Of a stretch of DNA of 37,199 nucleotides, positions 1-37,199 are shown one piece after another. The notes under the pieces were generated by a model. The model had not been told where the DNA came from, searched no databases, and saw only the letters and a program-made list of their open reading frames with translations. The stretch comes from a virus (Duplodnaviria > Caudoviricetes), in the IMG/VR virus record IMGVR_UViG_3300030372_005973, positions 1 to 37,199 of that record; one strand, 5' to 3'. Numbering within the stretch: the first letter of the stretch is position 1; each line of letters starts with the position of its first letter. The translations under genes and the position numbers were made by a program.

Positions 1-819
1 TTAAAATAGTTTTAAATCATCTCTTGGGTTGCTCAGATCATAATTTGCTGTCAACACTTCAATTTTCTTCTTTCCTGGTCTGCCTGTGCCATTTGCTACA
101 CTTACACTTTGTTCCAACTGCATTGTATGCCACCTGTTGGCATCGCTGTATTGCTTCAATATATCACTGGGATAGCTACTCATCAAAAACTTACCCTGAA
201 TGCCTTGGAGCGTCTTTAATAGGTTTTCAAAGTCATCTTGGCTATATCCATCATAGTGGCCACAATCGCTATTGAAGTATGGCGGATCGCAATAATGAAA
301 CGCATCTTTGTGGTCCCGACTATTGATAACCCGCAGCGCATCGGTACATTCCACTTGCACATTCTGCATCCTGATGGCCAAATCAATTGTGAAATCCTCA
401 CGTTTATTGGTTATCTTCTTACTGGTAGTGCCTTTCATCCTGTCGTACCCAAAAGAACCATCCAGCATACTGCTGAAGCTTTGAGCAGCCAGAACCCAAA
501 CAGCCCACGCTCTTTTTAATCTATCAAACATGTGAGGATTATTATAAATGACCGTCGCATCATTATGCAGGGATCGGCTGTGGAGACTTATACGAACTAA
601 TTTCTCCAGTTCTACAAATTCATTCTGTACGCACTCATAGAAGTTGATCAGCTCTCGATTGTAATCATTGATGATTTCCGTTTCACTCTTTGGTTTTGCC
701 CAGAAGATGGCACCGCCACCAACAAAAGGTTCCACGTATGTTGAATGATCCGGAATCAATGGCAAAATGGTGCTCACTAAATTCTGTTTACCTCCGTAAT
801 AACTTGTTGGTGTCTTCAT
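1..819 (-). CDS. Dam-family (D12 class) N6-adenine DNA methyltransferase
   Basis: YYGGK N-terminus, EPFVGGGA SAM-binding motif, IINDYN, catalytic DPPY, FLMSSY. Confidence 0.9.
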   Translation of the reverse strand: MKTPTSYYGGKQNLVSTILPLIPDHSTYVEPFVGGGAIFWAKPKSETEIINDYNRELINFYECVQNEFVELEKLVRISLHSRSLHNDATVIYNNPHMFDRLKRAWAVWVLAAQSFSSMLDGSFGYDRMKGTTSKKITNKREDFTIDLAIRMQNVQVECTDALRVINSRDHKDAFHYCDPPYFNSDCGHYDGYSQDDFENLLKTLQGIQGKFLMSSYPSDILKQYSDANRWHTMQLEQSVSVANGTGRPGKKKIEVLTANYDLSNPRDDLKLF

Positions 820-1475
820 ACGTTCAATGTGAATTTTGTTGAGCCACCAGCAAGCAGTTCCTTTGTGCCTTCAATATTATTTTGATAGATATGGACATTG
901 CCCAGGAATAAAGTAATTGATTTCAGCTGTACATCAATCTGCTTACTTATCAGATATAAGTGGTAGATATCGGCAGGCAATCCCAAACTGGCATCGCTCG
1001 AGCGCTGATACGCCGATACAATCAATTTCCCTTTTTCAATCTGAAACTGTATCAAGCTCAGGCACGGTTGCTGATTACTTTCAGCATTTGTCTGGCCAAG
1101 AAAAAGCACGTAATTTTTGCTATTTCTTTTCTCCCGGTTAATCTTTTCAATTAGCCTGGGCAATTGCTCAAAATAGGTAGGGTAGCTGTTTACCAGTATT
1201 GGTCCGCAATAGTCCCACCAAGTTACTCCAGCTTCACGGTAAGCTTCCGTAGAGCGCTCACCGGCCATAAACAGGTTGAGCTCATCCTTTAATTTCTTTC
1301 TGGCCATTCCGTGGCCCTCAAAGATTTCCAAGAGGTCTATTGGTTTGAGAACCAATGTTTCATTAAGCAGATACTGTATATCTCCCTTTTTGTTCTTTTG
1401 AATTTTACCTTTTTCAAGGATTTTTACAAGCATTCTATGATACTTGTTCTGTCTTGTTTTTGTTATATTTGTCAT
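816..1475 (-). CDS. Thymidylate synthase-fold protein, probable dCMP methyl/hydroxymethyltransferase
   Basis: QPCLSLIQFQ (catalytic Cys), YQRSSDASLGLPADI, GNVHIY; ATG at 1475 preferred over TTG at 1484; overlaps the MTase start by 4 nt. Confidence 0.85.
   Translation of the reverse strand: MTNITKTRQNKYHRMLVKILEKGKIQKNKKGDIQYLLNETLVLKPIDLLEIFEGHGMARKKLKDELNLFMAGERSTEAYREAGVTWWDYCGPILVNSYPTYFEQLPRLIEKINREKRNSKNYVLFLGQTNAESNQQPCLSLIQFQIEKGKLIVSAYQRSSDASLGLPADIYHLYLISKQIDVQLKSITLFLGNVHIYQNNIEGTKELLAGGSTKFTLNV
1464..1471 (+). promoter_or_regulatory. Bacteroidota -7 promoter box TATATTTG, divergent from and overlapping the TS-fold gene
   Basis: Exact TAnnTTTG match with TTG 17 nt upstream (1444-1446); points directly into a long hairpin. 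Confidence 0.6.
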
Positions 1476-1584
1476 CTCACTCAATTAAAAAATCCATTCC
1501 TAAGTTCAAGGCTTTGCCCTCGGTTCCAGGAATGGATTTTAATATTTAATTGAGTGAGATCGTTAAGTATGCCGGGGGTTTTTT
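1474..1584 (+). ncRNA. Candidate structured ncRNA: long hairpin plus loop-tail pseudoknot
   Basis: Arms 1474-1501 and 1528-1560 are complementary apart from one bulge; loop GCCCTCGGT (1516-1524) can pair with GCCGGGGGT (1571-1579); T-run follows. Confidence 0.6.
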
Positions 1585-1786
1585 ATACCCGCAGTTGTTC
1601 GGGGTTACTTTTCCCTTTTTGATAGGCCTGAATGCCTTTATCGGCTACCCGGACACCAAATAACAATCCTTCAAAAGTTAATACCAGGCCACAATGTTCG
1701 TGGCCGTTCAATAACAGCGCTGTAGCTGTTAGTACTATCGATGCAATTACTGCAGTCCAAAAATTGCTCACTATTTTAGTTTCCAT
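1583..1786 (-). CDS. Small two-TM membrane protein, holin-like
   Basis: ATG at 1786 (METKIV...), two hydrophobic segments, basic C-terminus. Confidence 0.5.
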   Translation of the reverse strand: METKIVSNFWTAVIASIVLTATALLLNGHEHCGLVLTFEGLLFGVRVADKGIQAYQKGKSNPEQLRV

Positions 1787-3947: not shown

Positions 3948-4867
3948 GCCCTTGGTAAATATGTAAATACACTGTTTAGTTCATCCAGTTTAAAATAACC
4001 GCTTTGCGGTAACCTATATTCTGTAAATGGCCCCACATTCCCTTGTGGATTGGTTTGGTCATAATCATAGGTTCCATAGTAGCTTGCCGCACTTTGAAAA
4101 AATACGCCGTTGGGAACAATTCCAGGAACCGCTTGAATGATATCCGTTAATTCGGTAATGGATAGCTTTCCGTTAAAATCTATTAGGTTTTTATCCTTTA
4201 AATATGTTTTAATGGCATTGATAACCGGAGTTTCATCGGTACCATCCAAACGCTGGCCCAAGTTGTTCAATACAGATGGATTGAAGTAAAGCTTATAGTT
4301 TACGCGCAATCGGTCTGCATCTTCACTGCTGGCATCAATTGTTATTCCGGAAGCTCCTTTTTGCTTCATATAAGCTTTAAACCCTGCCAATTCACCAGCT
4401 GTAAGCTTTGCTAGATCACCACCCACATTCTTTGCAGTTTTTAAACGCAAAATGCCGTGGCCATTGCGTGATGCTTCTTCCACACTGCATTTTGCCACGA
4501 TCTTTTTTGCTGCTACTTCTGCTATGGTTAAACCGGTATTGTCATATTCGTTCCATTCGGTAAGTGCCTGCCCGTGTTGGTAATTAAGCGCATAGGCTAT
4601 AATCTGCAATTGCTGAAAAGGCATTGCACGCGCAATGCGGTCATCCACATCCTGTTTATGGATAGAAAACATTTTATAAATACTCCAAGCTACGGTGGCC
4701 ACCACAAATACAATCAACCGCCAAACGCTTACTTTACTTGTGCTGGTTAGATTGGCAAGGGTAGATTGCTCATTTTCTGTCAATACCGCAGTTGCCGGCA
4801 GATCATCTGCACCGGCAGCTGTGTTTAGTATTTGGGTCTGTATGTCGTTTATTGTTGGTACTGCCAT
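3944..4867 (-). CDS. Baseplate J-like protein (Mu gp47-like)
   Basis: STSKVSVWRL N-terminal motif, C-terminal FNGKLSITELTDIIQAVPG; synteny. Confidence 0.7.
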   Translation of the reverse strand: MAVPTINDIQTQILNTAAGADDLPATAVLTENEQSTLANLTSTSKVSVWRLIVFVVATVAWSIYKMFSIHKQDVDDRIARAMPFQQLQIIAYALNYQHGQALTEWNEYDNTGLTIAEVAAKKIVAKCSVEEASRNGHGILRLKTAKNVGGDLAKLTAGELAGFKAYMKQKGASGITIDASSEDADRLRVNYKLYFNPSVLNNLGQRLDGTDETPVINAIKTYLKDKNLIDFNGKLSITELTDIIQAVPGIVPNGVFFQSAASYYGTYDYDQTNPQGNVGPFTEYRLPQSGYFKLDELNSVFTYLPRA

Positions 4868-7302
4868 TATAATTTATTTGCTATATAATTTGATAAAACA
4901 TTTGCGTATTGTTTTGCGCCAACCACTCCTGGATGAACTGAATCAGAAGCAGTTCCTTTTCTTGAATTATTATCTGCAGAAAGCACTTCTGAAGTGTCAA
5001 ATTCATAGCACAGATACCTATCCACATGTTGCCATACCGGAATAATATCAGCGCCCAATTCATTGGCCTTTTTTATAGCCATTTCTATTAGATTGGCATA
5101 AGCTGGCCAATTGTTATTCTCGTTCACGGCAATAATTGGAGCAAAACCTACTACCGCATCAGCATCAAATTGAATAATCCTGTTGTAAAATATTTCCATC
5201 CCCAAAAGCACATCATTTTTTGATTGCTCGCTTTCTCCGTTATGGTTTAGGTCATTAAATCCTAGCGCACAGGTAACTATAAGTTTTTTACCCGAGTCAA
5301 TTCCACCGATATTTGTGTTTACATATCGTTCAAAATCAAACGTATAATAATCTCCAGCATAAGTTCCAATTGCTTGGCTTTCTGTATAGTTTAATTCCCG
5401 AGCCACTCCTGCAGTTCCTCCGTTTGTTGAAGGAGTGTTTTCAAAACACCATTCTGGATTAGTTGAGATTTGTAAAGGCGTAGCCACTTTTAAAAATGGA
5501 TTTTTACTCAATGAAGAGTCTGAATTTTCTGAAGTAACATAAACAGTCCCAGAATATTCAGTGCGCAATCCTATTAAAATGGCAAACTCCCAACTAGATC
5601 TACCTTCGTTAGCATAAATATCTGAGCGTAGCCCTCTGAAAGTTGGAGCAGCTCCCCAATTATTAACTAAAGACTCCCTTACATAAGGCGTTACGGCTTG
5701 CGGTGCACTTACTCCATCGGTGATGCTGTCCCCGAAAATAAACAGCTCAGCGGTTTTACCACTAACCGATGCACGGGTCACCTTTTGGATGCTTGTATTC
5801 TTAAAATATAGATTGCTGTTATTTTTAAGCTTGTTGAATATTTTCAATGTTCCAGCATTTGTCAATTCAGAAGCTCGTAATCTTATAGAAAAATCAAAAT
5901 AATCTGAAAATTGGGATTGAATTCCCAATGAACCTGAATATCCTTCAGAGGTCAATATTGAGTGCTTAAATAGTTGCAAATTGTCTTCATCAACCAAATA
6001 GAGTTTATCACCTACAATAATTCTATCTTCACTTTCAGAAAATCCATCGGATGTGTTATGAACTATGCTTGAAAGTTGTGTTTGGGCAATTGTATATGCA
6101 ACTGGTACGGTATAAACACCGGTAATTTTATTCCAATCAATCCAAACCTTTCCGGTTATTCCACTATTGTCACTTTCCGCTAGGTTTACAATATTTACTC
6201 CAGATGGATTTTCAACCAATGCGGTATTATAAAATGCAACACCAGTAATGTGATCGTGCCCTTCTTCTTCAATGATTATATAATAAAATCCATTTGATGT
6301 CCTGTTTTTCGCAAATGTTTTTAAATAGTATTTTTTAGAAGGATCGCCTCCGTAAAGTTCAACACGTTCAATAGCTTTAAAAATATCCGGCTTATCTTTA
6401 TAAATTGTTGTATTTACTTCAAAGATTCCTTGAGTTATTGGATAAGGAGCTACCAATTTATCTTTTAAATTCTTCCTATAAATTATAGATTTAACAAACT
6501 TACCCTGTGCCAAAGTAACAGCTGATCGTCCACCAGCTGGATAAAATACTTGATCCCAATTAATCACTGCTCTGCCAACAATTGCACCTGTTGAACCAAA
6601 TAATTCTACCACCTCTATTCCAGTGGAAGGAGCAACAACCGTCCAAAAGCCATCAAAAATTTTACCCCCAGCAACTTTTGCTCCATTACTGGATTGACTA
6701 ATTTGTAAATAATTTCTTCGTATGCCTCCAGCAGAATAATAATTACCAATATATGATAAGTAGTAACGCTCCGATGAATCGTCAAAGTAAAGTTCAATAT
6801 CCAGTACCGCGGCTTTTACGTAATTTAAATTTTTACCAGTAATGGTATCATCAAAAGGAAAAAAACTATTTACACCCTGCTGTGTAAATGGCGCATCCTT
6901 TACAAAAGATGATCCATTATAAGAATAATACCCATTATTACTTTCTGTAGAGTCTTGAGTTACCGCATAGCGAGTTGTGGTAGATGGGCTCGGGTCAGCA
7001 TTTAGGTTTGTTAGGGTATTGTATCGCACAATTCCATCCATTTGATTTGCTTGAATTGCATCAATATCATCTGAATTTTCTTCTATTAAATTATATAACT
7101 CTTCACCTGTACCATCATAATCTCCAGCTGGCAATTTTGCAGCAGATTCATACATTTCCTTAACTTTTGGACCCAATATTCCAATAGAATTATAAGCTGG
7201 ATCAGAATGTTTGGTTCTTGCGTCAAGCTCCTTAATAATGGCGGCACCTTCTTCTTTAGAATAGCGCTGTCCGTTGTAATCTCTAATAGGTTGTTGTTCC
7301 AT
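4867..7302 (-). CDS. Tail spike/receptor-binding protein with C-terminal SGNH/GDSL hydrolase
   Basis: IFGDSIT (block I), EGRSSW (II), LGFND (III), DSVHP (V); located in the baseplate operon. Confidence 0.75.
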   Translation of the reverse strand: MEQQPIRDYNGQRYSKEEGAAIIKELDARTKHSDPAYNSIGILGPKVKEMYESAAKLPAGDYDGTGEELYNLIEENSDDIDAIQANQMDGIVRYNTLTNLNADPSPSTTTRYAVTQDSTESNNGYYSYNGSSFVKDAPFTQQGVNSFFPFDDTITGKNLNYVKAAVLDIELYFDDSSERYYLSYIGNYYSAGGIRRNYLQISQSSNGAKVAGGKIFDGFWTVVAPSTGIEVVELFGSTGAIVGRAVINWDQVFYPAGGRSAVTLAQGKFVKSIIYRKNLKDKLVAPYPITQGIFEVNTTIYKDKPDIFKAIERVELYGGDPSKKYYLKTFAKNRTSNGFYYIIIEEEGHDHITGVAFYNTALVENPSGVNIVNLAESDNSGITGKVWIDWNKITGVYTVPVAYTIAQTQLSSIVHNTSDGFSESEDRIIVGDKLYLVDEDNLQLFKHSILTSEGYSGSLGIQSQFSDYFDFSIRLRASELTNAGTLKIFNKLKNNSNLYFKNTSIQKVTRASVSGKTAELFIFGDSITDGVSAPQAVTPYVRESLVNNWGAAPTFRGLRSDIYANEGRSSWEFAILIGLRTEYSGTVYVTSENSDSSLSKNPFLKVATPLQISTNPEWCFENTPSTNGGTAGVARELNYTESQAIGTYAGDYYTFDFERYVNTNIGGIDSGKKLIVTCALGFNDLNHNGESEQSKNDVLLGMEIFYNRIIQFDADAVVGFAPIIAVNENNNWPAYANLIEMAIKKANELGADIIPVWQHVDRYLCYEFDTSEVLSADNNSRKGTASDSVHPGVVGAKQYANVLSNYIANKL

Positions 7303-20774: not shown

Positions 20775-23282
20775 ATGGCAAAACAAAGCAGCACACACAG
20801 TAAGATTGGTAAATCTTATGTAGCCTATACCGGCAAAATAAAAACTGGAGGTTTACGAATGACTTCCCAGGACATCAGTAATTGGGTTCGGGCCATTAAC
20901 GCGGCAAAAAGCAAAAATCCAAAACGGAAAATGCTTTATGAGCTGTATGAAAATATTATCATCGATGGCCACCTTGAGAGCGTGATGGAAAAAAGGACCG
21001 TTTCAGTGATCAACAAAAAATTGATTTTTACCGAAAAGAATAAAAGCGGTGCTGAGAATGAATTTATGCAGGAATTTGTACTTGAAACTCCTTGGATGCG
21101 CGAGCTCTTGAAAAAATCTATGGAAGCCATTTATTACGGCCATTCACTTATTGAACTTATTCCAAAGGAAGGAATGATTGATAAAGTTGTATTGGTACCA
21201 CGGCAAAATGTAATTCCGGAGACTGGCTTTGTAATGGAAGATACGGGAACCCCGGACAAAGGAGCATTTTATCGCGAGGAAGGTTTCCAATATTACAATT
21301 ACCTTATTGAAGTTGGTGGCCCTAAGGATTTGGGTAAACTAATGACAACCGCACAATACATCATTTACAAGCGTGGGGGCTTTGGTGATTGGGCACAGTT
21401 TGCCGAAATATTCGGATCACCTTTCCGTGTGGGTAAATACAATAAATATGATGATGACGTTCGCCATAATTTGGAGAAATCATTAAACGAAATGGGATCT
21501 GCTCCCTATGCTGTAATCCCGGAAGGGGCATCTATTGAATTTGTTGATAACAACCAAACTGGAAAGAGTGAGGTTTTCAGTAAGCTTATTGAATTCTGTA
21601 ATTCTGAAATTTCTAAACAGTATGTGGGTCAAACTATGACAACGGAAGATGGTTCCAGTAGAAGCCAATCTGAGGTGCATAAGGAAGTTGAGGAAGAACT
21701 CAATCTATCCGATATGATTGAAATGGAATTTATGCTCAACTGGCAATTTGTACCGAAGCTTCGGAATATCGGATATAATATACCTGAAGGAAAAATCCAT
21801 TTTGATCAAACAAAAGCCCTGCCAATTGAAAAGCGTATCGAAATCGATATGAAGGTTTCAGAAAAAGTACCGTATCCAGACGAGTACTGGTACTCTACAT
21901 ACGGAATTGATAAACCTACAGCTGAAGAAATTGCCAGAAAGCAAAAGGAAAAAGAGGAGGCTAATAAAAATAATCCGCCTCCAGCTGATCCGCCACCGGC
22001 TAATCCAAAAAAAGAAGATCCTTCAAAAAAAAAAGTAGATCCTAAAGCGGAAAAAATTCCAGATCCTGTAGAATTTGTAAACGCCTATGAGCCAACGGAT
22101 GAAGATGAGCAATACATAAAGGATTTCTTTGATAAGGCGCGCACGTATTCTCCGGAGAAATTCCAAAAGGAACTGAAAAAACTTACTTCCGGGATACGCA
22201 AACAATTTCCTACTTCCATAGGCTATATGGAACCGGACTACATTGCCGGAACCATGCTGGAGCTCAACCTTAACCGTTTCGGTTACAGCAAAACAATTGC
22301 CCAGGTATTTGAACTTAATAAAGCTTTGGATATCCAAGGGGGTTATGGAGCCTTTAGAAAGAAAGCGGTGGCCATAATGGGAAATTTTGATAATTACCTG
22401 CAGACGGAATATAACGATGCCATAGCTACCGCCCAAAATGCCGCCAATTACATACGTCAAATGAAGGATATAAAGCTTTTCCCGTATTGGCGTTATGAAA
22501 CCGTTGGTGATGACAAAGTTCGTGCATCACACGCAGCGCTCGATGGAAAAGTGTTTGCGCTGAAGGACGTAAAATCACGCCAATTCATTCCGCCAAATGA
22601 GCATAACTGCAGATGTTTTACAACCGCGTTGAGAGCAGCTGAAGTAAAAGAGGCAGATGTAATCGATTTTGAAAAAGGCAAGAAAGCCCTGGGCAAAGAT
22701 TTTGATAAAATGAAGGATAATGGTTTCTTGGCCAACCGGGGCGAAACGCTCGAGGTTTTTGATTTGGCCAAAGCCTATATCGACAAATTAAAAACGATTC
22801 CGGAAACTGAAGCTGCAGATTATTCTCTTTGGGGACTTCAGAAAATTGAAGAAATTAGAAAGACCAGGAAACTGAAAAAATTGAATTTCAATAAAACGGA
22901 TACTCCAGCTAAATTGATTAAGGATTTTGATAAAAACAAAGTTACGATTACAAACCGGGAAGTAAATATTCTAACAGATTATTCCGGACGTGAAATTGCT
23001 ATCTCTGAAACATCATTTAAAAAGCATTTAAAGGGTAATTATATAACCAAAGAAAGCCGGGACCAAATCTGGAACAATGTAAAAAACATACTTTCGGATC
23101 CTGACGAAGTTTGGTTGAATGTTTTCTCCGGAGAAAGTCAGTACGAATATTTGAAATTCTTTGATGATGAAATTATGGTTGTGGCCGTTCAAATTACAAA
23201 GGCCCGGGGAATGGAAATTAAAACCTGGTACATCAGCAGAAAAGCGGAAAACAAATTACGACGGGGAATTTTAATAAAATAG
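20775..23282 (+). CDS. Portal (DUF935/gp29) - MuF - PBECR-like nuclease fusion
   Basis: Portal motifs (WAQFAEIFGSPFR, GQTMTT, SRSQSEVH); Pro/Lys linker; MuF (LQTEY, YETVGDDKVRASH, PPNEHNCRC); C-terminal LSDPDEVW...YLKFF...KTWY...RRGILI. Confidence 0.82.
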   Translation: MAKQSSTHSKIGKSYVAYTGKIKTGGLRMTSQDISNWVRAINAAKSKNPKRKMLYELYENIIIDGHLESVMEKRTVSVINKKLIFTEKNKSGAENEFMQEFVLETPWMRELLKKSMEAIYYGHSLIELIPKEGMIDKVVLVPRQNVIPETGFVMEDTGTPDKGAFYREEGFQYYNYLIEVGGPKDLGKLMTTAQYIIYKRGGFGDWAQFAEIFGSPFRVGKYNKYDDDVRHNLEKSLNEMGSAPYAVIPEGASIEFVDNNQTGKSEVFSKLIEFCNSEISKQYVGQTMTTEDGSSRSQSEVHKEVEEELNLSDMIEMEFMLNWQFVPKLRNIGYNIPEGKIHFDQTKALPIEKRIEIDMKVSEKVPYPDEYWYSTYGIDKPTAEEIARKQKEKEEANKNNPPPADPPPANPKKEDPSKKKVDPKAEKIPDPVEFVNAYEPTDEDEQYIKDFFDKARTYSPEKFQKELKKLTSGIRKQFPTSIGYMEPDYIAGTMLELNLNRFGYSKTIAQVFELNKALDIQGGYGAFRKKAVAIMGNFDNYLQTEYNDAIATAQNAANYIRQMKDIKLFPYWRYETVGDDKVRASHAALDGKVFALKDVKSRQFIPPNEHNCRCFTTALRAAEVKEADVIDFEKGKKALGKDFDKMKDNGFLANRGETLEVFDLAKAYIDKLKTIPETEAADYSLWGLQKIEEIRKTRKLKKLNFNKTDTPAKLIKDFDKNKVTITNREVNILTDYSGREIAISETSFKKHLKGNYITKESRDQIWNNVKNILSDPDEVWLNVFSGESQYEYLKFFDDEIMVVAVQITKARGMEIKTWYISRKAENKLRRGILIK

Positions 23283-25071: not shown

Positions 25072-25782
25072 TTATTGTTCAACATATTTCTTAATGGCAT
25101 TTTTCCACAATAAGTAACCAGAGCCATTTATATGGACTCCATCATAAGTTAAATTAGCATTTAAACTATTTGATTCATCAACAAACAATGGAAATAAATT
25201 GATATAGGTATAACCAAATTTATCTGCCAATCTTACTAAATTAGTATTTATTGCAATAATATCATCATTTTTCCTATTTAACCCGTTATCAGTAGGCAGA
25301 ATACTTTGAATAAATAATTCCGAATCTGGTGATTCCTTTTTTAAAATAGTCAGCAATCTTTCATAATCAGTCAATATTTGTTCAACACTTCTTTTTTTCC
25401 GCAAATCATTAATTCCAATCATCAGAAAAATCTTCTTAGGTTTATTGAGAATAATTCCATCGATTCTGTCAATTAGGCCGTTTATAACATCACCAGAAAT
25501 ACCTCTATTGCTTATTTTATCATTCTCAAACAATTCATTCCATTGGCAATTTTCCGTAATGCTATTCCCAACAAAAAATATACCTTCCTTATTCAATGGC
25601 AAAACTTCTAAAATGCTTCTTTTAGTATTGTAATTAAACCCATAGCCATCATTTCCTTCTGAAGTTTTTTCATTAAACTTTAATTTCACGTAATCGATGC
25701 CTCCAAAAGCAAAAAAAATGAGAATTCCAATAACCAAAAAAATAATATTAAACGCAATGGAAATTTTAAGGGCTCTTTTCAT
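25072..25782 (-). CDS. Membrane-anchored GDSL/SGNH esterase (accessory gene)
   Basis: N-terminal TM; FVGNSIT, NRGISGD, MIGIND, YDGVH motifs. Confidence 0.85.
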   Translation of the reverse strand: MKRALKISIAFNIIFLVIGILIFFAFGGIDYVKLKFNEKTSEGNDGYGFNYNTKRSILEVLPLNKEGIFFVGNSITENCQWNELFENDKISNRGISGDVINGLIDRIDGIILNKPKKIFLMIGINDLRKKRSVEQILTDYERLLTILKKESPDSELFIQSILPTDNGLNRKNDDIIAINTNLVRLADKFGYTYINLFPLFVDESNSLNANLTYDGVHINGSGYLLWKNAIKKYVEQ

Positions 25783-36380: not shown

Positions 36381-37199
36381 ATGCAAGAAATTTCGCTTTT
36401 TAAGAAAAATATCCTTGAATTCATTGAATTTAAAGGGATTCGCAAAAGCGAGTTTTATCGAATGACAGGTATAACTCGTAGTGTTTTGGACAAAAATTCA
36501 GGTCTTACAGAGGATAATGTGGCGAAATTTATCGCAACCTTTCCAGAGGTAAATTTGGAATGGTTTGTTACTGGAAAGGGTAAAATGTTGAAGGAAAATT
36601 CCGAAGAAAATGTTAAACAGGAAAAATACTTAGGCGTACAGGAAAAACCCTTTTTTTATGAAAAACAAAAAGGAAATTTGCCTTCTGTAATAACTGTAGA
36701 TTCTCAAGGCGAAGAAAATATTTTAATGGTACCGGTGGCGGCCAGAGCCGGATATTTATCTGGTTATGGTGATGCTGATTATCTGGCGACCCTTCCAACT
36801 TACAGAATGCCAAAATTACAAAATGGAACATTTCGAATGTTTGAAGTTGCAGGTCATAGTATGTACCCAACTATTCACCAAGGTTCAATTGCAATTGGTG
36901 AGTGGGTAGAAAACTGGAAAGACATCAAGGACAATCAAATTTATATTGTCGTTACTGCTGAAGATGGTATTGTTATTAAAAGAGTAATGAACCGGATCGA
37001 AAAATATAATAACCTATATCTTAAAAGCGACAATAGAAAGGAATATCCTAGCTACACAATTGACCCAAATTCTATTTTGGAGGTATGGCACCTCAAAACT
37101 GCATTAATTTTTGAATTTCAGGATCCAGCTGATCTATATGATCGGGTTAATGATCTTGAGGTGGAATTTCACATGCTTCAAGGACTTTTAAAGCGGTAA
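36381..37199 (+). CDS. CI-like repressor with S24 peptidase domain
   Basis: N-terminal HTH (VNLEWFVTGKG), ARAG cleavage-like site, GHSMYP (Ser), VIKR (Lys). Confidence 0.9.
   Translation: MQEISLFKKNILEFIEFKGIRKSEFYRMTGITRSVLDKNSGLTEDNVAKFIATFPEVNLEWFVTGKGKMLKENSEENVKQEKYLGVQEKPFFYEKQKGNLPSVITVDSQGEENILMVPVAARAGYLSGYGDADYLATLPTYRMPKLQNGTFRMFEVAGHSMYPTIHQGSIAIGEWVENWKDIKDNQIYIVVTAEDGIVIKRVMNRIEKYNNLYLKSDNRKEYPSYTIDPNSILEVWHLKTALIFEFQDPADLYDRVNDLEVEFHMLQGLLKR

What the first reader, a model, noticed from the sequence alone, without database searches (positions are those of the whole stretch)
816..1475. TS-fold enzyme carries Asp at the Asn177 position, predicting cytosine (dCMP) modification
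Seen: QRSSDASLGLPADI aligns without gaps to E. coli ThyA QRSCDVFLGLPFNI, placing Asp at Asn177; the catalytic PC is kept, PCH becomes PCL, and the protein is short (219 aa). Established: Asn here selects dUMP, while Asp selects dCMP (T4 dCMP hydroxymethylase Asp179; the L. casei TS N229D mutant methylates dCMP). Inference: the enzyme makes 5-methyl- or 5-hydroxymethyl-dCMP and is not a ThyA. That is unusual for a transposable phage with no polymerase, dNMP kinase or dCTPase in the window. It could give partial genome modification, poison nucleotide pools, or act on another cytosine substrate.
Basis: partly seen in the sequence, partly recalled or inferred. Interest (0 to 1): 0.85.

Follow-up and report, generated by a model that had tools for sequence, protein, structure and literature searches.

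The report
Prophage cytosine-modifying enzyme behind RNA gate
A Mu-like prophage of a marine Flavobacterium relative carries a shortened thymidylate-synthase look-alike with the active-site residue of cytosine-acting enzymes, placed behind a conserved folded RNA leader that sister phages put in front of DNA methylases and Mom, so it likely makes a modified cytosine building block that would shield phage DNA from host restriction enzymes.

Summary
Observation confirmed. Window 816-1475 (-) encodes a 219-aa thymidylate-synthase (TS)-fold protein; Asp169 sits at ThyA Asn177 and is present in 244 of 244 close relatives, including hankyphage 'ThyA' (72%). It fails ThyA's tests (Asn177, His147, three of four phosphate arginines, NCBIfam cut-offs), and the host has its own ThyA. 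It lacks the hydroxymethylase acid at 143 (Gln) and the 5-hydroxylase D169N, so methylation is slightly favoured but open. Context is the new evidence: the gene lies in the Mu mom position behind a covarying RNA leader (79 of 82 loci; no Rfam match). In 114 leader loci picked without regard to TS, 112 lead into DNA-modification genes (adenine and C5 methylases, Mom, a GNAT/formyltransferase cassette, or this TS). Best reading (0.55): a dCMP C5-methyl/hydroxymethyl transferase that partly modifies phage DNA through host kinases, as anti-restriction. No activity has been measured, and no kinase or dCTPase was found. This scan noted the enzyme family five times and the leader once on other genomes. 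New variant of a known kind; easy to test.

The parts
816..1475 (-). Short TS-fold protein (219 aa), predicted dCMP C5-modifying enzyme
969..971 (-). Asp169 codon, at ThyA Asn177 / T4 gp42 Asp179
1062..1064 (-). Catalytic Cys138 codon (ThyA Cys146), in QQPCL; Gln135 = Leu143, Leu139 = His147
1..819 (-). D12-class (Dam-like, DPPY) adenine DNA methyltransferase, overlapping the TS stop by 4 nt; last gene of the phage's modification end
   Evidence: Pfam PF02086 E 2e-27, phrog_56
1463..1602 (-). Conserved structured RNA leader (model R1 hit)
1474..1560 (.). Long hairpin of the leader; the first two bases of the TS start codon pair at its foot
   Evidence: z -9.6, 0 of 200 shuffles; inverted repeats
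1571..1578 (-). 5' leader segment complementary to the loop segment at 1517-1523 (alternative pairing)
1464..1471 (+). TAnnTTTG motif (Bacteroidota -7 promoter element, recalled) pointing antisense into the hairpin
   Evidence: the matching CAAAnnTA columns are the only invariant ones in alignment A2 (rows were chosen by this motif)
1583..1786 (-). Small membrane protein just upstream (holin-like by position; no family hit); also present in the TS-less sister phage L180
33203..36107 (-). MuB-like ATPase and MuA-like transposase, marking the element as a transposable phage with TS at the far end
   Evidence: phrog_296, phrog_310
36381..37199 (+). CI-like repressor at the opposite end
   Evidence: phrog_4

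Best explanation
The protein is likely a folate-dependent enzyme that adds one carbon to C5 of dCMP (more likely methyl than hydroxymethyl), and the product would be phosphorylated by host kinases and built into part of the phage DNA to blunt host restriction. Shown: TS fold, Cys138, Asp169 and the deoxyribose-type residues; mom-slot position; a conserved leader shared with methylases and Mom; induction of the hankyphage homologue when the repressor is silenced. Inferred: Cys138 attacks C6, Asp169 selects cytosine, methylene-THF gives the carbon; late transcription reads through the leader, which would keep the gene quiet in the lysogen (probably through an antisense RNA and alternative pairing); without a phage kinase or dCTPase only a fraction of C would be replaced, adding to the m6A of the coupled methylase. 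Within this reading: methyl about 0.35, hydroxymethyl about 0.2.
For: Residues: Asp169, Cys138, Glu65, Trp87, Tyr98, Arg158, Asp161, His195, Tyr197 in 243-244 of 244 relatives. Asp at 177 marks dCMP enzymes (PMC8670742 section 11; PMC13326640 section 24); 5 of 7 tested Asp177 TS homologues and the Xp12 enzyme made 5mdC in E. coli with T4 gp1 (bioRxiv 10.1101/2024.12.05.627091). Methyl side: no Asp/Glu at 143 (Xp12 has Asn, T4 gp42 Asp), TS-like C-terminus FxLNV (Asn218 244 of 244), closer to ThyA than to gp42. Ser159 fits deoxyribose (PMC5175136). Selection: dN/dS 0.015 and 0.019 in the 2 of 126 unsaturated pairs; median pS 0.93 against pN 0.19. Context: adjacent DNA methylase in 116 of 162 loci, of three types; leader in 79 of 82 loci, 37 of 40 outside its training set; 112 of 114 leader loci lead into modification genes; sister phage L180 has leader then Dam with no TS. 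Mu-like phages swap mom for broad methylases (PMC3299994). Hankyphage 'ThyA' log2FC 1.5-2.0 at 1-6 h and 4.4 at 22 h after repressor silencing (PMC12135933 file 9). TS homologues expressed without a phage kinase gave trace 5hodC in plasmid DNA. Host ThyA is intact.
Against: No activity or modified base has been measured for this family in anything I found. No phage kinase, dCTPase, polymerase or DHFR; the only kinase-free precedent seen gave trace levels, perhaps too little to protect. The host encodes a probable dCMP deaminase that could turn 5mdCMP into dTMP. Three of four phosphate arginines are changed (Lys29, Lys120, Asn121), the Lys48 loop and Phe176 are lost, and Gln135 matches neither known rule. 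34 of 162 loci carry TS with no methylase, so the pair is not obligate. The tree puts the family on a long branch with no tested enzyme as sister. The hankyphage induction is weaker than that of structural genes at 6 h and is confounded by copy number. In this window the antisense hairpin is not directly followed by a U-run.
Confidence: 0.55

Rival explanations
1. Polymer- or ribo-level substrate: the enzyme modifies cytosine already in DNA (or CMP/RNA), which would explain why it needs no kinase or dCTPase.
For: All other occupants of the slot are known or predicted to act on DNA after replication. Three of four phosphate arginines are changed. The family is basic: median pI 9.0, 207 of 244 above 8, 18 conserved Lys/Arg positions, against pI 5.6-6.4 for ThyA, gp42 and Xp12. 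Lys120 matches MilA Lys133, an auxiliary ribose determinant.
Against: His195 and Tyr197, which bind a free 3'-OH, are invariant, and Ser159 disfavours ribose. Some full-length relatives are basic too. No TS-fold DNA enzyme is known to me (recalled).
Confidence: 0.13
2. Thymidylate supply by a detour: dCMP to 5mdCMP, then host deaminase to dTMP, boosting dTTP during transposition-driven replication.
For: Xp12-type phages make dTTP from 5mdCTP. The host has a probable dCMP deaminase. No kinase is needed.
Against: The host already has ThyA and the deaminase. The gene is the last late gene, not early, and swaps with methylases and Mom. No deaminase was among the 45 commonest neighbour clusters.
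Confidence: 0.12
3. Pool poison: a modified dCMP that is toxic to the host or to superinfecting phages, with the leader acting like a type I antitoxin.
For: Tight-looking RNA control with an antisense promoter motif; no downstream processing genes.
Against: The same leader precedes ordinary methylases and Mom, so it does not single out a toxin. Expression rises in lytic growth.
Confidence: 0.1
4. A divergent but ordinary dUMP methylase (ThyA), as the databases annotate it.
For: Best sequence and structure matches are ThyA proteins; the C-terminus is TS-like.
Against: Asp177 and loss of His147 are the two top markers of cytosine-modified genomes; 50 bits against a 108-bit TIGR03284 cut-off; separate from the Asn177 clade in the tree.
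Confidence: 0.05

Closest known systems
Xanthomonas phage Xp12 dCMP methyltransferase (TS homologue QNN97214.1) and MetaGPA 5mdCMP synthases
   Same: Asp177, Asp169 kept, GLPxD motif, amide rather than acid at 143
   Different: 24% identity; Xp12 is 289 aa, keeps the arginines, sits with DHFR and a deaminase and replaces all C; this one is 219 aa, temperate, with no partners
T4 gp42 dCMP hydroxymethylase
   Same: Asp at 177, Lys at 21, no His147, short chain
   Different: 20% identity over 90 aa, E 0.002; gp42 has Asp at 143 and works with a glucosyltransferase next to it, a kinase and a dCTPase (recalled)
Thymidylate synthase ThyA
   Same: Fold, Cys146, Glu58, Trp80, Tyr94, Arg166, Asp169, His207, Tyr209, C-terminal tail
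   Different: Asn177, His147, Leu143, Arg21/126/127, Lys48, Phe176 changed; residues 101-111 and 224-256 missing
Hankyphage (Bacteroides phage p00) 'thymidylate synthase' DAC76694.1
   Same: 72% identical, same residues, same end position, same leader
   Different: Hankyphage adds an 80-aa ORF and a different D12 methylase; the enzyme is uncharacterised there too
Mu mom and the Hia5/Hin1523 methylases of Mu-like prophages
   Same: Terminal slot, interchangeable modification genes (PMC3299994, PMC7761591); a leader that hides the start codon resembles mom control (recalled)
   Different: Those act on adenine in DNA; this would act on a cytosine precursor; no Com-like gene found here
MilA CMP hydroxymethylase; RB69/DLP3 5hodCMP synthases
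   Same: Asp177; Lys at Arg126 as in MilA
   Different: Ser not Ala at 167; no acid at 143; no D169N

Membership tests
ThyA (dUMP methylase) | TS fold and catalytic Cys | tested here: met
ThyA (dUMP methylase) | Asn177 and His147 | tested here: not met
   Asp169 and Leu139 in 244 of 244
ThyA (dUMP methylase) | Four phosphate arginines (21, 126, 127, 166) | tested here: not met
   Lys29, Lys120, Asn121, Arg158
ThyA (dUMP methylase) | NCBIfam equivalog cut-off | tested here: not met
   below all 8 models, e.g. 50.3 vs 108.35 bits
ThyA (dUMP methylase) | dUMP to dTMP activity | not testable with these tools
   needs assay
Xp12-type dCMP methyltransferase | Asp177 with Asp169 and no acid at 143 | tested here: met
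   Asp169, Asp161, Gln135
Xp12-type dCMP methyltransferase | Partner genes (deaminase, DHFR, polymerase, NTP pyrophosphatase) | tested here: not met
   none in 55 window ORFs or the 45 coding features of hankyphage jmh43 by annotation
Xp12-type dCMP methyltransferase | Shared clade with the tested enzyme | tested here: inconclusive
   long branches, open backbone
Xp12-type dCMP methyltransferase | 5mdCMP formation; 5mC in virion DNA | not testable with these tools
   needs LC-MS
T4-type dCMP hydroxymethylase | Asp177 | tested here: met
T4-type dCMP hydroxymethylase | Asp/Glu at ThyA 143 | tested here: not met
   Gln in 244 of 244; rule from PMC13326640
5hodCMP synthase (RB69 gp48 type) | D169N | tested here: not met
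   Asp161 in 244 of 244
MilA-type CMP hydroxymethylase | Ala at Ser167 | tested here: not met
   Ser159 in 243 of 244
MilA-type CMP hydroxymethylase | Lys at Arg126 | tested here: met
   Lys120 in 243 of 244
Mom-slot DNA-modification genes of Mu-like phages | Terminal position and exchange with methylases/Mom | tested here: met
Mom-slot DNA-modification genes of Mu-like phages | Modified virion DNA resistant to restriction | not testable with these tools
   needs experiment
Catalogued Rfam RNA | Leader reaches a family's gathering score | tested here: not met

The most novel reading that the evidence does not exclude
Temperate Bacteroidota phages, including the ubiquitous gut hankyphage, modify cytosine with one stand-alone folate enzyme and no kinase, dCTPase or polymerase of their own: either by doping the shared nucleotide pool, which would also mark host DNA in induced cells, or, at the boldest, by acting directly on DNA as the first TS-fold DNA cytosine modifier; an uncatalogued antisense RNA switch gates the whole interchangeable set of modification genes.
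Probability: 0.4. Interest if true: 0.82.

Novelty: new variant of a known kind. Interest (0 to 1): 0.65.

Why it matters
Known precursor-level cytosine modification comes from lytic phages with a full kit that replaces all C. A one-gene version in temperate phages that use the host replisome would be a new anti-restriction design, and it would sit in one of the commonest human-gut prophages, where the gene is annotated as ThyA and so may be counted as a metabolic gene. It would put sequence-independent 5mC/5hmC into Bacteroidota methylomes. The leader gives a handle for finding further modification genes in the same slot. Existing hankyphage strains with an inducible repressor knock-down make the test immediate.

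Tried and rejected
Obligate TS-methylase complex: rejected; 34 of 162 loci with full flanks have TS alone, three methylase types occur, in either order; no complex prediction was run. Leader specific to TS: rejected; in 120 family genomes 5 had it and only 1 of these had TS. Idea that Bacteroidota lack a thymidylate kinase and so have a permissive one: not general; 47 of 61 genomes have Tmk over the cut-off, though this host and the B. thetaiotaomicron control do not; two paper searches gave nothing relevant. Rfam: only weak hairpin hits far below gathering scores. RNAalifold on the MAFFT alignment recovered only the 8 outer pairs because inner stems vary in length; single-sequence folds carry that part. 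Expression: no RNA holder listed; the laid runs were contigs and showed only presence of relatives. Prophage ends: four TG/CA candidates with 5-bp duplications, none singled out. ESM Atlas returned only TS-named clusters. The sigma-70 promoter/terminator scan was at chance level. dN/dS was saturated in 124 of 126 pairs. Six loci were dropped from the residue count because my crude cut held a stop or frame break (L007, L033, L041, L045, L103, L106); only L033 was seen to be split into two ORFs. Iyer et al. 2013 (NAR) is not held, so whether it mentions this family is unchecked; bioRxiv supplements and 15 of 27 hankyphage supplements were not seen.

Full report
Observation. The ORF at 816-1475 on the minus strand encodes 219 aa with a Pfam thymidylate synthase match (E 4e-20). 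Aligned with E. coli ThyA taken from the K-12 record, QRSSDASLGLPADI pairs without gaps with QRSCDVFLGLPFNI, so Asp169 is at Asn177; PCL replaces PCH. An AlphaFold model from a 74-row alignment is confident (pLDDT 94.3) and matches TS structures.

Family. In 50,697 phage records, 79 matched at 1e-8, and 21 of them, hankyphage p00 and kin, at 72%. I fetched 80 of 127 genome loci and 80 of 554 confirmed viral loci, plus two annotated phage regions: 162 loci. Among 244 distinct close sequences (window protein, 156 of the 162 loci, 118 database proteins; all chosen by likeness to the query) Asp169, Cys138, Gln135, Leu139, Arg158, Asp161, His195, Tyr197 and Asn218 are in 244, Ser159 and Lys120 in 243. 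Synonymous sites are saturated while the protein is kept (median pS 0.93, pN 0.19; dN/dS 0.015 and 0.019 in the 2 of 126 usable pairs). A 39-row tree makes the 21 short proteins one side of a branch (95/83), apart from 7 Asn177 enzymes (98/90); the backbone is open and the tested enzymes sit on long branches.

Chemistry. From papers: Asp at 177 and change of His147 are the top markers of cytosine-modified contigs (PMC8670742, passages and section 11). An acid at 143 goes with hydroxymethylation and D169N with flavin hydroxylation; those enzymes gave trace product in plasmid DNA without a phage kinase (PMC13326640, passages and sections 24, 28). Five of seven Asp177 homologues and Xp12's made 5mdC with T4 gp1 (bioRxiv 10.1101/2024.12.05.627091, passages). 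Ala176 and Lys133 give MilA its ribose preference (PMC5175136, passages). This family has Asp177, Gln143, Asp169, Ser167 and Lys126: cytosine and deoxyribose are predicted, hydroxylation is unlikely, and methyl is favoured only mildly, by the missing acid (Xp12 has Asn) and a conserved TS-like C-terminus. Against a textbook enzyme, three of four phosphate arginines, the Lys48 loop and Phe176 are changed, residues 101-111 and 224-256 are missing, and the family is basic (median pI 9.0). It scores below all eight NCBIfam TS cut-offs. The host has a normal ThyA, Cmk and a probable dCMP deaminase (named from its motif, my recall), and no Tmk over the cut-off.

Context. The window is a Mu-like prophage with repressor and transposase at one end and TS plus a D12 adenine methylase, overlapping by 4 nt, at the other, the slot where Mu has mom and relatives have broad methylases (PMC3299994, abstract and discussion part 1; PMC7761591, passages). 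None of 55 ORFs matched a kinase, dCTPase, polymerase or glycosyltransferase. Of 162 loci, 107 have the hankyphage-type methylase next to TS, 6 the window's Dam type, 3 a ParB-fused methylase, 34 none with full flanks, and 12 are too short to tell.

Leader. A hairpin at 1474-1560 (z -9.6) pairs with part of the start codon. Upstream regions of relatives share its anatomy: a 5' segment, a long stem, a loop segment complementary to the 5' segment, then a motif that reads as the Bacteroidota -7 promoter on the other strand (consensus recalled). All 56 aligned copies fold at z below -3; 17 of 18 counted pairs change on both sides, 0 of 500 shuffles reach this (relatedness inflates the control). 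The model finds one sense copy in 79 of 82 loci, 37 of 40 outside its training set, at the head of the TS operon whichever gene comes first, hankyphage included, once in the host genome and in none of 9 regions from other phages. Rfam has no match. A pattern scan blind to the downstream gene gave 120 loci, 114 distinct; by my tally the first gene is the hankyphage-type methylase in 37, TS in 27, a small ORF plus ABC-ATPase/GNAT cassette (formyltransferase behind it where the flank reached) in 20, Dam in 9, ParB-methylase in 9, Mom in 7, C5 methylase in 3, nothing in 2; labels were checked by Pfam/PHROG on representatives, 40 loci had only 300-nt flanks, and the pattern came from TS leaders, so TS is likely over-counted. 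The cassette's role in DNA modification is my inference. In random samples, 5 of 120 family genomes and 2 of 150 phylum genomes had the leader: one TS+Dam, four methylases alone, one Mom, one no clear ORF. L180 is a sister phage with the same upstream genes, the leader and an 84% identical Dam but no TS. The gene is thus a swappable member of a regulated DNA-modification slot.

Mechanism. Likely: late transcription passes the leader, the enzyme converts part of the dCMP pool to 5-methyl- (or hydroxymethyl-) dCMP, host kinases and polymerase would place it in phage DNA, and many restriction sites would be blocked. Hankyphage data fit the timing loosely: 'ThyA' rises log2 1.5-2.0 at 1-6 h and 4.4 at 22 h after repressor silencing, less than structural genes at 6 h (PMC12135933 supplement 9); its main text does not mention the gene. 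The weak link is phosphorylation, and the host deaminase could drain the product to dTMP. Rivals are action on DNA or CMP, a dTMP detour, pool poisoning and plain ThyA.

Novelty. Asp177 TS homologues are known. Ten searches (listings only, apart from the papers named) found no paper on this family's substrate or on the leader; the hankyphage discovery paper has no 'thymidylate' (PMC6199706) and a 2026 preprint only notes three conserved nucleotide metabolism/modification genes (10.64898/2026.05.11.724261, passage; supplements closed). The library lacks most subscription papers. This scan reached the same enzyme reading five times and the leader once on other genomes; those notes are not independent evidence. 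Verdict: new variant of a known kind, untested, interest 0.65.

Noticed in passing
window 1463-1602 (-); L016 4023-4172; L081 5501-5662: Uncatalogued RNA leader with an antisense promoter motif and covarying alternative pairing, in front of many kinds of DNA-modification genes in Bacteroidota prophages.
   Followed up: yes
L206 4-1131 (-), L200 201-2125 (-), L244 2716-4500 (+): Behind the same leader: a 42-45 aa ORF, an ABC-ATPase/GNAT gene (one ORF in L206, two ORFs in most others, which might be a programmed frameshift) and a formyltransferase; a candidate DNA-modification cassette, first in 20 of 114 loci.
   Followed up: partly
L081 5677-6000 and other gut Bacteroidales loci: An 80-aa ORF (phrog_17790; annotated Mor-like in BX-TP2) ends in a conserved palindrome followed by a sense TAnnTTTG motif just before TS; possible activator and operator, like Mu C at the mom promoter.
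   Followed up: no
G000 C11:150069-150605 (-): Host has no canonical thymidylate kinase over the cut-off; its best hit is a FolK fused to a deoxynucleoside-kinase-like domain. Most sampled genomes of the same class also lacked it, while most others in the phylum had it.
   Followed up: partly
window 20775-23282 (+): Portal protein fused to a Mu F domain and a C-terminal PBECR2 nuclease-like domain.
   Followed up: no
window 4867-7302 (-) and 25072-25782 (-): Two GDSL/SGNH hydrolase genes: one as the C-terminal domain of a probable tail fibre, one a small membrane-anchored protein.
   Followed up: no
L087 3492-4289 (Edwardsiella phage KF-1), L093 2980-3822, hits H66-H73: A clade of lytic podophages annotated 'thymidylate synthase' has Asp177 with Leu143 and His147, next to a polymerase and an NTP pyrophosphohydrolase; likely unrecognised 5mC phages.
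   Followed up: partly
L033 5914-6651; L215; L182; L193: Decayed slots: TS split into two ORFs (L033), truncated (L215), or no clear gene behind the leader (L182, L193).
   Followed up: no
P0129, P0133, P0140, P0143, P0160, P0162, P0165, P0204, P0231, P0264: Distant short Asp177 relatives (30-51% identity) with Gln at 143 in 9 of 10; their genomic context is unknown.
   Followed up: partly
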